Part shown: positions 12,001-15,000 of the stretch, one piece after another | How the letters are laid out: each line of letters starts with the position of its first letter | How positions within the stretch are numbered: position 1 is the stretch's first letter | DNA from: Escherichia coli | GTDB lineage: Bacteria > Pseudomonadota > Gammaproteobacteria > Enterobacterales > Enterobacteriaceae | Direction: 5' to 3' (one strand) | Assembly: GCF_030013205.1 (NCBI RefSeq) | Contig: NZ_CP122648.1 | Length of the DNA stretch: 64,000 bases | Made by a program: the position numbers

Positions 12001-15000
12001 ATAAAGCGGGATATCGTCTGGTGATGTTGACCGGGGATAACCCAACCACCGCCAATGCGATCGCCAAAGAAGCAGGGATTGATGAGGTGATCGCCGGGGT
12101 GCTGCCGGACGGTAAAGCCGAAGCGATCAAACGTCTGCAAAGTGAAGGACGTCAGGTGGCAATGGTGGGCGACGGCATTAACGACGCGCCAGCGCTGGCC
12201 CAGGCGGATGTCGGTATTGCGATGGGTGGCGGCAGTGATGTTGCCATTGAAACCGCGGCGATTACCCTGATGCGCCATAGCCTGATGGGTGTTGCAGATG
12301 CGCTCGCGATTTCCCGCGCAACGCTGCGCAATATGAAGCAGAACCTGCTCGGTGCGTTTATCTACAACAGCATTGGTATTCCGGTCGCCGCCGGTATTTT
12401 GTGGCCGTTCACTGGAACACTGCTTAACCCGGTGGTTGCCGGAGCGGCAATGGCGCTCTCGTCGATTACCGTAGTGAGTAACGCCAACCGGTTACTGCGG
12501 TTTAAACCGAAAGAGTGATTGGTATTTACTTAATGCGTTTGTGAGATCCAGTTCTTGTTGCGCTCCTTTTATGAGTCATGCCATATAAAGTGACTGGCGC
12601 AGGGAGCGCGCAGGGGGCGGCCAATCGCCGCCGCCCCCTGCCCCCCCGGGCTCTGGCGAACAAAATCGCCGCTGCGCGGTACCCTCAGCTTATCCCTTGC
12701 GGCTACCGGGTCGGGCGCGAGGTAACATCCCTGTAAAACGCGCCCTCAGCCCACATCCATGTGGGCTGCCCCGGCCTTCAGGGAACGCCTCGGCGATTTT
12801 GACGCCACCAACACCGGTGCAGTCTTTCGTTTCAAAGCAAAAACAATTTTTCGATCATATTTAAGCTACCACTGAACAAGCCTCATAACTCCATTTGCGC
12901 CATCCCTCCCCGCGCGCTAGCATGATATTTCACAAAGGGAGGTCGTATGGATCTGTTGTACCGGGTAAAAACGCTTTGGGCCGCGCTGCGCGGTAATCAT
13001 TACACCTGGCCTGCTATCGATATCTCTCTTCCCGGCAATCGCCATTTTCATCTGATTGGCAGTATTCATATGGGCAGCCACGATATGGCTCCCCTGCCCG
13101 CCCGTTTGCTCAAAAAGCTCAAAAACGCCGATGCGCTGATCGTCGAGGCGGATGTTTCCACCAGCGATACGCCTTTTGCTAATTTGCCTGCCTGCGAGGC
13201 GCTGGAAGAGCGCATTAGCGAGGAGCAACTCCAAAACCTGCAGCACATTAGCCAGGAGATGGGCATTTCTACCTCACTCTTTTCTACCCAACCGCTGTGG
13301 CAAATCGCGATGGTTCTTCAGGCGACGCAGGCACAAAAACTGGGGCTGCGGGCAGAATACGGTATCGATTACCAGCTATTGCAGGCGGCGAAGCAACAAC
13401 ATAAACCCGTGATTGAACTGGAAGGGGCTGAAAACCAGATTGCCATGTTGCTCCAGCTCCCTGACAACGGACTGGCACTGCTGGACGATACGCTGACCCA
13501 CTGGCACACCAATGCACGGTTGCTGCAACAAATGATGAGCTGGTGGCTGAATGCGCCGCCGCAAAATAATGAAATAACGCTGCCTAATACGTTCAGTCAG
13601 TCGCTGTACGATGTGCTGATGCATCAGCGAAATCTCGCCTGGCGGGACAAATTATGCGCCATGCCGCCGGGGCGCTATGTGGTCGCAGTCGGTGCACTAC
13701 ACCTGTATGGAGAAGGGAATTTGCCGCAGATGTTGCGCTAAAAAAATGGCCAATATCGCTATTGGCCCGTCAAAGAGGAATTTCATATTTTTATTATTAT
13801 GCCGTCACTTTAAGCGACGGTGTAACTCGATTGTCGCTCAATCTCACCATCCTGCCAATACTCTTAGGCAAGATGACTCTTTTTTTGGACCGCCATCAGG
13901 CGTATGCTTGCTTCGTTTTTTTGTTTAAGGCAGGAAAATTACCATGACACCCGCAGTTAAATTACTCGAAAAAAACAAGATTTCGTTTCAAATCCATACC
14001 TACGAGCACGATCCGGCTGAAACCAATTTTGGCGATGAAGTCGTCAAAAAATTAGGTTTGAATCCGGATCAGGTCTACAAAACGCTGCTGGTCGCAGTGA
14101 ACGGTGATATGAAACACCTTGCCGTGGCCGTTACGCCGGTCGCAGGTCAACTGGATCTTAAAAAAGTAGCAAAAGCGCTGGGTGCCAAGAAAGTTGAGAT
14201 GGCCGATCCGATGGTTGCGCAGCGTTCGACGGGATATCTGGTTGGGGGGATTAGCCCTCTGGGGCAGAAAAAACGTCTGCCAACGATTATCGACGCCCCC
14301 GCACAAGAATTTGCCACTATTTATGTTTCCGGTGGCAAGCGCGGACTGGATATCGAACTGACGGCAGGCGATCTGGCGAAGATCCTCGATGCCAAATTTG
14401 CTGATATCGCCCGCCGCGATTAAGCATTGTGCCGGATGCGAACATCCGGCACTTTCGGATTACTGCCAGCTCACCTCACCTTTCGGTTCATAAACACTCA
14501 CATCCAGCGGCGAGCTTTTCTGGATATACGCTTTCAGCACTTCGGCATCAATAAAGCCGGTATTCACATAGCCCGGTTTGTTATCAAGGCGCGGATATCC
14601 ATCACCGCCGGTGGCATTGAAGTTTAATGTCGCCATGCGGTAAGTTTTCGCCGGATCGACCGGTTCGCCGTTGATTTTCAGGTCGTTGAGTTTGCCGTCT
14701 TTCGCCACAAAGCTAACGTTGGCAAATTGCGGGTAGGCACCTGAATCTGGCTTCATTTGTGCGACGGCGGTCAGGTAATCAATCACCTCTTTACCGGTCA
14801 TGTCGGCATACACCACCACATTGCCGAATGGCTGCACTTTCAGCACGTTTTTATAGCTGATATCGCCTGCTTCGATAGAATCACGAATTCCGCCTCCACT
14901 CATCACCGCAAAGTCAGCACCAGTGCGATCCATTTGGGCTGCCAGAATCAACCGCCCCATATTGGTCTGTACAAAACGCACTTTGTCACGATCGCCTTCC

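What the first reader, a model, noticed from the sequence alone, without database searches (positions are those of the whole stretch)
12519..12946. copA-ybaP intergenic region lacks a ybaQ-like ORF and is GC-rich and hairpin-dense
From my recollection of K-12 gene order, a small HTH regulator gene (ybaQ, about 113 aa) lies between ybaP and copA. Here the 428-bp gap has no ORF of 60 aa or more on either strand. Instead, about 12580..12810 is unusually GC-rich and packed with inverted repeats: cagggggcggc-caatc-gccgccccctg (12611..12640), gcccacat-cc-atgtgggc (12749..12766), and a long-range pair ggcgaacaaaatcgcc (12654..12669) with ggcgattttgacgcc (12791..12805), giving a roughly 150-bp imperfect palindrome. 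This does not match the REP consensus seen elsewhere in the window. It may be a deletion scar, a miniature inverted-repeat element, or a structured RNA.
Basis: partly seen in the sequence, partly recalled or inferred. Interest (0 to 1): 0.5.

Follow-up and report, generated by a model that had tools for sequence, protein, structure and literature searches.

The report
Known TRIP1e/RRS repeat replacing ybaQ
In this E. coli strain the small regulator gene ybaQ between copA and ybaP is replaced by a copy of TRIP1/RRS, a published GC-rich, strongly folding repeat reported to stall DNA replication locally, so the oddity is real but already described.

Summary
K-12 carries ybaQ between ybaP and copA. 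This window instead has about 360 bp with no ORF of 60 aa or more, and a 65-70% GC, hairpin-dense core.

The core (window about 12553-12823) is not unique. It is the TRIP1 repeat (Rudd 1999), renamed RRS, "Replication Risk Sequence" (Pham et al., NAR 2024). This copy is the "TRIP1e" type of Li et al. (Genes 2024), which lies 38 bp after copA and 124 bp before ybaP. I find this allele in 346 of 5426 complete E. coli genomes, and ybaQ in 4834.

The published RRS function acts on DNA. A G-quadruplex strand on the lagging-strand template blocks polymerases and leaves transient single-stranded gaps. Here that strand is the window minus strand, and its orientation fits the model.

New here:
- 33 distinct copies from Escherichia, Klebsiella (13 places in one chromosome) and Pseudocitrobacter support a 13-helix fold with 18 compensated pairs.
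- Wobble asymmetry points to the G4 strand as the folding strand.
- Two hairpin loops with an invariant GGA resemble the TwoAYGGAY RNA motif, a proposed CsrA binder, but score below Rfam's threshold.

Verdict: already known; moderate-to-low interest.

The parts
10014..12518 (+). copA (Cu+ P-type ATPase), left neighbour
   Evidence: ORF list; RefSeq annotation of the identical locus in strain CFSAN018748
12519..12552 (.). 34-bp left flank specific to this allele; not homologous to K-12 and not shared with other TRIP1 copies
   Evidence: BLAST against K-12; alignments of copies
12553..12823 (-). TRIP1e / RRS repeat. It spans 271 bp by homology to paralogues, and 12557-12822 using the distances given by Li et al. 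2024. GC is 65%. The strand given is the G4-forming, structure-bearing strand.
   Evidence: 93.7% identical to K-12 TRIP1a between aqpZ and lysO, and 90.4% to the dusC-yohP copy. The position matches TRIP1e in PMC10888264.
12595..12817 (-). 223-bp core shared with Klebsiella copies at 82-87% identity; about the size of the 222-bp RRS of Pham et al.
   Evidence: PMC11194060
12628..12647 (-). G-quadruplex motif GGGGGGGCAGGGGGCGGCGG, 19 of 20 identical to the published RRS G4 (GGGGGTGCAGGGGGCGGCGG)
   Evidence: motif taken from PMC11194060
12611..12640 (-). Perfect 11-bp hairpin that overlaps the G4 motif; it is kept by compensatory changes (C:G to A:T) in dusC-type copies
   Evidence: helix 11: 4 pairs changed on both sides
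12655..12806 (-).
   Evidence: helices 2-3: 6 pairs changed on both sides between Escherichia and Klebsiella
12747..12768 (-). Hairpin A. The loop is CAUGGAUG on the minus strand and is invariant in all 33 copies, while the stem covaries (ACAU/AUGU, GCAU/AUGC, GCGC/GCGC).
   Evidence: helix 7
12713..12745 (-). Hairpin B. The loop is ACAGGGAUGU on the minus strand; across copies it reads A-N-GGA-Y with GGA invariant.
   Evidence: (helices 8-9)
12560..12609 (-). Terminal hairpin GCGCTCC...GGAGCGC. On the minus strand it would pair an AAGGAG, Shine-Dalgarno-like sequence. No conserved start codon or ORF follows.
   Evidence: helices 12-13
12824..12874 (.). 51-bp right flank specific to this allele. 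The first 18 or so nt resemble the flanks of some other E. coli copies. No consensus promoter.
12875..12946 (+). 72 bp upstream of ybaP that are shared with K-12 (96% identity, continuing into ybaP)
12947..13741 (+). ybaP (TraB family protein), right neighbour

Best explanation
The interval holds TRIP1e, a locus-specific extra copy of the TRIP1 / RRS (Replication Risk Sequence) repeat. It sits on an allele of the copA-ybaP spacer that lacks the ybaQ (HigA-family antitoxin) segment of K-12.

Most likely it acts on DNA, as reported for the two K-12 RRS copies. When the replication fork opens this region, the G-rich strand (window minus strand, here the lagging-strand template) folds quickly into a G-quadruplex or multi-hairpin structure. 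That structure blocks lagging-strand synthesis and leaves a transient single-stranded gap. The copy also serves as a substrate for homologous recombination with the other TRIP1 copies.

Shown here: the identity of the element, the replacement of ybaQ, the fold, and the orientation. Inferred from the literature: gap formation at this particular copy.

Confidence is about 0.97 for the identity and about 0.55-0.6 for the mechanism.
For: Identity.
- The core is 93.7% identical to K-12 TRIP1a (aqpZ-lysO) and 90.4% to the dusC-yohP copy.
- Position, length, GC content and fold energy match TRIP1e of PMC10888264: 38 bp after copA, 124 bp before ybaP, 265 bp, 62-65% GC, -149.6 kcal/mol. My values are 266 bp, 65% GC, and an ensemble energy of -150.5 kcal/mol (MFE -147.3).
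- PMC11194060 states that RRS is TRIP1 and lies at lysO and dusC.

Allele frequencies. The full 428-bp spacer occurs in 346 of 5426 complete genomes. ybaQ occurs in 4834 of 5426.

G4 motif. It is 19 of 20 identical to the published motif and lies on the minus strand at 12628-12647.

Orientation. The window is inverted relative to K-12, so the window minus strand equals the K-12 top strand in the right replichore, which is the lagging-strand template. The 64-kb GC skew agrees: +0.02 on the minus strand, z = 3.7.

Fold. 73 pairs in 13 helices, 98.8% of cells paired, and 18 pairs changed on both sides, against 10.6 +/- 1.6 in shuffles (0 of 500 reach it) and 0-2 in the slid controls. One-sided changes give G.T/G.U at 15 pair positions on the minus strand against 5 on the plus strand, so the folding strand is the G4 strand.

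Experiments in PMC11194060. The G4 strand blocks Pol I, II and IV. An RRS placed elsewhere still triggers gaps. [quoted passage not shown]
Against: - Nobody has measured gaps at TRIP1e. This copy lies about 1.08 Mb from dif by K-12 synteny, not the roughly 650 kb that defines the two functional RRS.
- Orientation is not fixed in nature. TRIP1a is reversed in 1255 of 4703 genomes and TRIP1c in 2789 of 5741 (PMC10888264). I saw the reversal directly in O157:H7.
- In K. pneumoniae ATCC 13883 the G4 strand reads -, +, +, - across 550 kb. That cannot all be lagging-strand template.
- A G4-only model does not explain why the G-tract is held in a compensated Watson-Crick hairpin, or why two loops keep an invariant GGA while their stems covary.
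- The wobble asymmetry fits RNA as well as single-stranded DNA.
Confidence: 0.6

Rival explanations
1. TRIP1/RRS is, or derives from, a gene for a structured non-coding RNA read from the minus (G4) strand. Its core would be a TwoAYGGAY-like module: two adjacent hairpins that display A-N-GGA-Y loops. That RNA would bind a protein such as CsrA, whose SELEX consensus RUACARGGAUGU is cited from my own knowledge. On this reading the replication effects are a side effect.
For: - The only Rfam match in the region is TwoAYGGAY (RF01731), full-length on the minus strand at 12663-12802, 31.5 bits, E = 0.013. Other copies score 29.6-33.1 bits.
- The loops CAUGGAUG and ACA-N-GGA-Y-GU keep an invariant GGA in all 33 copies while their stems covary.
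- One-sided changes are G.U on this strand.
- PMC4333381 proposed TwoAYGGAY as a CsrA-binding sRNA.
- In Pseudocitrobacter a true TwoAYGGAY hit (49.2 bits, above the gathering score of 43) lies about 80 nt from a TRIP1 copy and shares the frame CAG-stem-AUGGAU-stem-CUGAGG.
- 82-87% identity between genera is unusually high for intergenic DNA.
Against: - The score is below Rfam's gathering threshold in every TRIP1 copy, and several copies gave no hit at all.
- There is no consensus sigma-70 promoter or intrinsic terminator at this copy or at K-12 TRIP1a, and the flanks differ between copies.
- Orientation relative to neighbouring genes is mixed: divergent from ybaP and from lysO, co-directional after yohP and after the O157 aqpZ.
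- There are only 4 GGA motifs, so it is not a CsrB-like sponge.
- I found no report of a transcript or of CsrA binding.
- The second loop in this copy is AGGGAU, which is not AYGGAY.
Confidence: 0.2
2. The copy has no function of its own at this locus. It is a repeat carried in by recombination or horizontal exchange of the spacer, and its only consequences are the loss of ybaQ and one more site for ectopic homologous recombination.
For: - The allele is rare (6%) and ybaQ is the common state.
- Whole-spacer replacement, with allele-specific flanks of 34 and 51 bp, looks like allelic exchange rather than insertion.
- Li et al. document rearrangements between TRIP1e and TRIP1a or TRIP1c.
- Copy number varies from 0 to 5 in E. 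coli.
Against: - The copy is intact. All helices, the G4 motif and both loops are kept, and it is 93.7% identical to TRIP1a.
- The family shows purifying selection on its structure.
- PMC11194060 reports that an RRS placed at ectopic sites still triggers gaps and can compensate for loss of the native ones.
Confidence: 0.15
3. It is a miniature inverted-repeat transposable element, or another non-autonomous mobile element, that inserted and displaced ybaQ.
For: It is multi-copy and dispersed. It shows presence/absence and orientation polymorphism. One Klebsiella chromosome has 13 places, and one locus carries a tandem pair.
Against: - No terminal inverted repeats (7 of 30 matches) and no target-site duplication.
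- No phage hits. All 34 plasmid-collection hits were typed non-mobilizable, and those I inspected were chromosome-sized or carried chromosomal genes.
- Each type sits at one fixed locus in thousands of genomes (PMC10888264).
- No transposase was annotated next to the copies whose annotation I read; most other loci were not annotated.
Confidence: 0.04

Closest known systems
TRIP1 repeat family, type TRIP1e (Rudd 1999, Res Microbiol; Li et al. 2024, Genes 15:236, PMC10888264)
   Same: Same locus (38 bp after copA, 124 bp before ybaP), same length (265-266 bp), GC content, identity to TRIP1a (94%) and predicted fold energy. It is a minority allele in both data sets: 3% of their 6725 genomes and 6% of 5426 complete genomes here.
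   Different: Nothing differs in the element itself. Li et al. do not mention that the allele lacks ybaQ. They also do not cover copies outside E. coli, covariation, the choice of strand, or the Rfam resemblance.
RRS, Replication Risk Sequence (Pham, Wood, Dunbar, Cox, Goodman 2024, NAR 52:6392, PMC11194060)
   Same: It is homologous to RRS-lysO (TRIP1a) and RRS-dusC (TRIP1c). It carries the G4 motif with one substitution, and the G4 strand is inferred to be the lagging-strand template.
   Different: It is not one of the two copies placed symmetrically about 650 kb from dif; by K-12 synteny it lies about 1.08 Mb from dif. Its effect on replication has not been tested. The motif has a G7 run (T to G).
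TwoAYGGAY RNA motif (Rfam RF01731; Weinberg et al. 2010, PMC2864571)
   Same: A long closing stem encloses two adjacent hairpins whose loops carry A-N-GGA-Y. The alignment covers the full model on the minus strand.
   Different: Scores are 29.6-33.1 bits against a gathering score of 43. The second loop here is AGGGAU. TRIP1 adds further helices, a G4 hairpin and a terminal hairpin. No transcript is known.
REP/BIME elements and their naRNA4 transcripts
   Same: GC-rich, palindromic, intergenic and multi-copy in Enterobacteriaceae. In Klebsiella a REP lies next to TRIP1.
   Different: The sequence is unrelated. There is no naRNA4 (RF02564) match in 12000-13500 even at E <= 10. TRIP1 is a single unit of about 270 bp present in 1-5 copies, not about 35 bp in hundreds of copies.

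Membership tests
TRIP1 repeat (type TRIP1e) | High sequence identity to K-12 TRIP1a/c over more than 80% of the length | tested here: met
   93.7% over 271 bp to K-12 TRIP1a (L004) and 90.4% to the dusC-yohP copy
TRIP1 repeat (type TRIP1e) | Type-specific locus: 38 bp downstream of the copA stop and 124 bp upstream of the ybaP start | tested here: met
   copA ends at 12518 and ybaP starts at 12947. The element spans 12557-12822 by those distances, and 12553-12823 by homology.
TRIP1 repeat (type TRIP1e) | 62-65% GC and a very stable predicted fold (about -150 kcal/mol as RNA) | tested here: met
   65% GC. Ensemble energy -150.5 kcal/mol (MFE -147.3), z = -5.2.
RRS (Replication Risk Sequence) | G4-forming sequence 5'-GGGGGTGCAGGGGGCGGCGG on one strand only | tested here: met
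   GGGGGGGCAGGGGGCGGCGG at 12628-12647 on the minus strand, 19 of 20 identical, with no match on the plus strand
RRS (Replication Risk Sequence) | The G4 strand is the lagging-strand template | tested here: inconclusive
   Consistent by synteny with K-12 and by the 64-kb GC skew (minus strand +0.02, z = 3.7). The origin and terminus of the source genome were not located.
RRS (Replication Risk Sequence) | Position about 650 kb from dif, flanking the Ter macrodomain | tested here: not met
   The locus corresponds to about 508 kb in K-12. I place dif near 1.59 Mb from my own knowledge, giving about 1.08 Mb. It therefore qualifies only as an 'additional RRS' in the sense of PMC11194060.
RRS (Replication Risk Sequence) | Triggers post-replication ssDNA gaps and blocks polymerases | not testable with these tools
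   Needs ssGap-seq or primer extension on this copy
TwoAYGGAY RNA (RF01731) | Covariance-model score at or above the gathering score (43 bits) | tested here: not met
   31.5 bits here. Other copies score 30.6, 33.1 and 29.6 bits, and several give no hit.
TwoAYGGAY RNA (RF01731) | Two adjacent hairpins with AYGGAY terminal loops | tested here: inconclusive
   Loop A is AUGGAU in all 33 copies. Loop B is AGGGAU here and AUGGAY or ACGGAC in only some copies.
TwoAYGGAY RNA (RF01731) | Expressed as an RNA | not testable with these tools
   No promoter or terminator consensus; no expression data available
MITE | Terminal inverted repeats and a target-site duplication | tested here: not met
   7 of 30 matches between the ends; no duplication at this copy or in the aligned E. 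coli and Klebsiella copies I inspected
CsrB/CsrC-type sponge RNA | Many (9 or more) GGA motifs, mostly in hairpin loops | tested here: not met
   4 GGA motifs on the minus strand and 2 on the plus strand; no CsrB or CsrC Rfam hit

The most novel reading that the evidence does not exclude
The TRIP1/RRS element is not only a G-quadruplex roadblock. It would be a selected, strand-specific fold of 13 helices whose core is a TwoAYGGAY-type module, and whose two invariant GGA hairpin loops are a recognition site for a protein (CsrA-like, or a binder of single-stranded DNA). On this reading E. coli K-12 carries an overlooked structured RNA, or a structured ssDNA ligand, in two full copies and one partial copy. 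Strains like this one would gain an extra dose at copA-ybaP at the cost of ybaQ.
Probability: 0.15. Interest if true: 0.7.

Novelty: already known. Interest (0 to 1): 0.3.

Why it matters
As written, the finding rediscovers TRIP1e. The value of this check is that it closes the case and attaches the right name and literature.

Two points go beyond the papers and could matter.

First, comparative evidence shows selection on a precise multi-helix fold of the G4 strand, including a hairpin that competes with the G-quadruplex. It also shows selection on two GGA loops. The published "G4 roadblock" model does not explain these features.

Second, natural variation in orientation tests the model's requirement for the lagging strand. 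The relevant cases are the reversed TRIP1a and TRIP1c copies in E. coli and the mixed strands in Klebsiella, where one chromosome has 13 places.

TRIP1e carriers are also natural strains with a third full-length RRS and no ybaQ. They could be used to ask whether one ectopic copy can replace the conditionally essential pair.

Tried and rejected
- Small protein or type I toxin. There is no conserved ORF. A Shine-Dalgarno-like AAGGAG at the minus-strand 3' end is followed by ATG in only some copies, with unrelated peptides of 7-20 aa. Rejected.
- Riboswitch or 5' leader. On the minus strand the element runs into the 3' ends of copA, aqpZ and dusC, which are convergent genes. Rejected.
- Promoter and terminator scans at this copy and at K-12 TRIP1a found nothing.
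- Phage search found no match. The plasmid-collection hits were all typed non-mobilizable. Several records are chromosome-sized, and the Klebsiella ones I opened carry chromosomal genes.
- Searching the hairpin sequences as text in papers gave 0 hits. CsrA with yohP or aqpZ gave nothing relevant. A search for the old RSA and Box C repeat names gave 0 hits.
- The exact-pattern scan of species-representative genomes returned only 26 stretches and missed the main E. coli representative. It cannot be used to argue absence in Salmonella, Citrobacter or other genera.
- Local GC skew of 3-11 kb flanks, used as a proxy for replication strand, contradicts the published orientation at dusC. I judged it unreliable and used it only for the 64-kb window.
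- The K-12 ybaQ spacer as a query is swamped by REP matches, so I repeated the search with the ybaQ coding sequence alone.
- I did not build a covariance model. No public collection can be searched with one, so it would not have changed the verdict.
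Full report
**1. Checking the observation**

copA occupies 10014-12518 (+) and ybaP occupies 12947-13741 (+). The 428-bp gap contains only ORFs of 33-55 aa. The single ORF of 60 aa or more that touches the gap (12917-13246, minus strand) lies almost entirely antisense inside ybaP.

Pairwise BLAST shows that homology to K-12 ends at about 12514 and resumes at 12875. 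About 360 bp here therefore replace about 727 bp of K-12 that include ybaQ.

GC content is 69.5% for 12600-12799, against about 50-57% on either side. All three inverted repeats exist. One was transcribed with 3 nt missing, and the long-range pair is off by one base (12655-12670 and 12792-12806).

The 271-nt core folds far better than dinucleotide shuffles on either strand. The z-scores are -6.3 and -6.2 as DNA and -5.2 as RNA, and no shuffle out of 200 folds as well.

**2. What the element is**

The core is not unique.
- Megablast against 5426 complete E. coli genomes finds window 12553-12823 in 5425 of them, at 2-8 places each. This count includes one short match to the conserved ybaP upstream flank.
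- The whole 428-bp spacer occurs in 346 genomes.
- Other copies lie between aqpZ and lysO (K-12) and between dusC and yohP.
- A Klebsiella pneumoniae chromosome has 13 places at about 82-87% identity.
- An exact-pattern scan also found copies in E. albertii, E. whittamii, Pseudocitrobacter and an unnamed member of the Enterobacteriaceae.
- There is no match in phages.

A literature search on the flanking gene names identified the family. It is the TRIP1 repeat of Rudd (1999).

Li et al. 2024 (PMC10888264) describe five locus-specific types. Their TRIP1e is 265 bp, 94% identical to TRIP1a, lies 38 bp after the copA stop and 124 bp before the ybaP start, and is present in 232 of 6725 genomes. 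That is exactly this element. The same distances give 12557-12822, or 266 bp, at 65% GC. My ensemble energy as RNA is -150.5 kcal/mol (MFE -147.3) against their -149.6.

Pham et al. 2024 (PMC11194060) state that TRIP1a and TRIP1c are their "Replication Risk Sequences", RRS-lysO and RRS-dusC. According to that paper:
- The repeats are 222 bp and lie about 650 kb on either side of dif.
- A G-quadruplex motif, GGGGGTGCAGGGGGCGGCGG, sits on the lagging-strand template.
- The motif blocks Pol I, II and IV and triggers post-replication gaps wherever the element is placed.
- At least one copy is conditionally essential.
- Removing or inverting both copies changes global supercoiling.

**3. This copy measured against that model**

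The G4 motif is present with one substitution (GGGGGGGCAGGGGGCGGCGG) at 12628-12647 on the minus strand.

The window is inverted relative to K-12. The window minus strand is therefore the K-12 top strand in the right replichore, which is the lagging-strand template. The GC skew of the 64-kb window agrees: the minus strand is G-rich at +0.02, z = 3.7. I did not locate the origin and terminus of the source genome, so this step is inferred.

The copy lies about 1.08 Mb from dif by K-12 synteny. It is an "additional" RRS rather than one of the symmetric pair.

**4. Allele status**

ybaQ is present in 4834 of 5426 genomes and the TRIP1e spacer in 346. About 246 genomes have neither.

The replacement covers the whole spacer and brings allele-specific flanks of 34 bp and 51 bp. 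This looks like allelic exchange of the spacer, not a clean insertion. Li et al. do not mention ybaQ.

**5. What this analysis adds**

I aligned 33 distinct copies from four genera.

*Covariation.* The consensus fold of the minus strand has 73 pairs in 13 helices, and 98.8% of cells are paired. Eighteen pairs changed on both sides. Column shuffles give 10.6 +/- 1.6 (0 of 500 reach 18), and registers slid by 1-3 columns give 0-2. Many of these changes follow the Escherichia/Klebsiella split and so count as few events. Others are independent: the dusC-type G-hairpin, the L012/L038 hairpin A, and the small CCGC/GCGG hairpin.

*Strand.* One-sided changes give G.T/G.U at 15 pair positions on the minus strand, but at only 5 positions on the plus strand. 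The structure-bearing strand is thus the G4 strand. The structure was predicted on the minus strand, which biases this count somewhat. However, the plus-strand prediction recovered the same core helices with A.C mismatches at those positions.

*G-tract hairpin.* The G-tract of the G4 motif is itself held in an 11-bp Watson-Crick hairpin, kept by C:G-to-A:T double changes. Hairpin and quadruplex would therefore compete.

*Invariant GGA loops.* Two adjacent hairpins keep an invariant GGA in their loops while their stems covary. Hairpin A reads CAUGGAUG in every copy. Hairpin B reads ACA-N-GGA-Y-GU, with one copy carrying a 1-nt deletion.

**6. Resemblance to a known RNA family**

The only Rfam match in the region is TwoAYGGAY (RF01731). 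It is a full-length alignment on the minus strand at 31.5 bits, against a gathering score of 43 (E = 0.013). Other copies score 29.6-33.1 bits or give no hit. Membership is therefore not met.

Still, the architecture is the same: a closing stem and two A-N-GGA-Y hairpins. TwoAYGGAY has been proposed as a CsrA-binding RNA (PMC4333381). The loops are close to the CsrA SELEX consensus RUACARGGAUGU, which I cite from my own knowledge.

In Pseudocitrobacter a genuine TwoAYGGAY hit (49.2 bits) lies about 80 nt from a TRIP1 copy, on the opposite strand. That neighbouring RNA-like element is absent from E. coli.

Evidence against an RNA role:
- No promoter or terminator consensus.
- Flanks that differ between copies.
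- Mixed orientation relative to neighbouring genes.
- Only 4 GGA motifs.
- No literature on a transcript or on CsrA binding.

**7. Tension with the DNA model**

Orientation varies in nature. Li et al. report TRIP1a reversed in 1255 of 4703 genomes and TRIP1c in 2789 of 5741. I confirmed that O157:H7 carries TRIP1a inverted between the same genes, with different short flanks. In K. pneumoniae ATCC 13883 the G4 strand alternates -, +, +, - within 550 kb. At least one of those copies must be on the leading-strand template.

**8. Verdict**

The element is already known as TRIP1e, a member of the TRIP1/RRS family.

The best-supported mechanism is the published one, acting on DNA, and I extend it to this copy by inference. 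An RNA or protein-recognition role for the conserved fold remains a minority possibility that the present evidence does not exclude.

Noticed in passing
L005 2501-2768 (E. coli O157:H7 Z852) versus L003 3001-3271 / L004 (K-12): At the aqpZ-lysO locus the TRIP1a copy of O157:H7 is inverted relative to the same flanking genes. It is bordered by different 40-60 bp sequences, as if the whole spacer had been exchanged rather than flipped in place.
   Followed up: partly
L016 2218-2281 (+) (Pseudocitrobacter faecalis); L027 1594-1657 (-): A genuine TwoAYGGAY RNA hit (49.2 bits, above the gathering score of 43; 37.8 bits in L027) lies close to a TRIP1 copy, about 80 nt away in L016, on the strand opposite the G4. 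It has about seven GGA motifs and a terminator-like GGGGGGCGCGGTTGCCCCCCTTT. It is absent from E. coli complete genomes apart from one partial hit.
   Followed up: partly
L009 1064-1285 and 1501-1722; L010, L011, L019-L023, L031-L036 (Klebsiella): One Klebsiella pneumoniae chromosome shows 13 TRIP1/RRS places, and one locus (L009) carries a tandem pair. Conserved sequence extends about 40 nt beyond one end and about 65 nt beyond the other, compared with E. coli copies, and a REP element usually abuts it. In ATCC 13883 the G4 strand is -, +, +, - at 0.83, 1.07, 1.14 and 1.38 Mb.
   Followed up: partly
window 12519-12946 locus across 5426 genomes: 4834 genomes have ybaQ and 346 have the TRIP1e spacer, which leaves about 246 with neither. 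A third allele of the copA-ybaP spacer must exist. The K-12 ybaQ-copA spacer also carries REP sequences and varies in length between strains.
   Followed up: no
L014 (Desulfacinum MAG, end of a 110-kb contig), L028 (Sporobacter MAG), L038 (Bacillus sp., 583-bp contig), L015 ('Proteobacteria' MAG): TRIP1 copies turn up in assemblies labelled as unrelated phyla. L015 is plainly E. coli copA plus TRIP1e (98% identity over 2.4 kb). These look like contamination or mis-binning, not true distribution.
   Followed up: partly
window 1-5000: There are at least ten tandem units of about 300 nt (about 100 aa) at 60-87% identity. This suggests a very large repetitive surface-protein gene at the left end of the window.
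   Followed up: no
window 13740-13823 (-): sroB/ChiX small RNA lies between ybaP and ybaK (Rfam, 81.1 bits). Other Rfam hits in the window are STnc490 at 31390-31513, the DnaX frameshift element at 27499-27563, naRNA4 at 19499-19576, SRP RNA at 44909-45005 and sraA at 62644-62739.
   Followed up: no
H30, NZ_CP137697.1 (128.8-kb record), positions 33666-33736: The 72 bp just upstream of ybaP (window 12875-12946) match a record that appears to be a plasmid (128.8 kb), at 94% identity. One search reports 12 places on plasmids in all.
   Followed up: no
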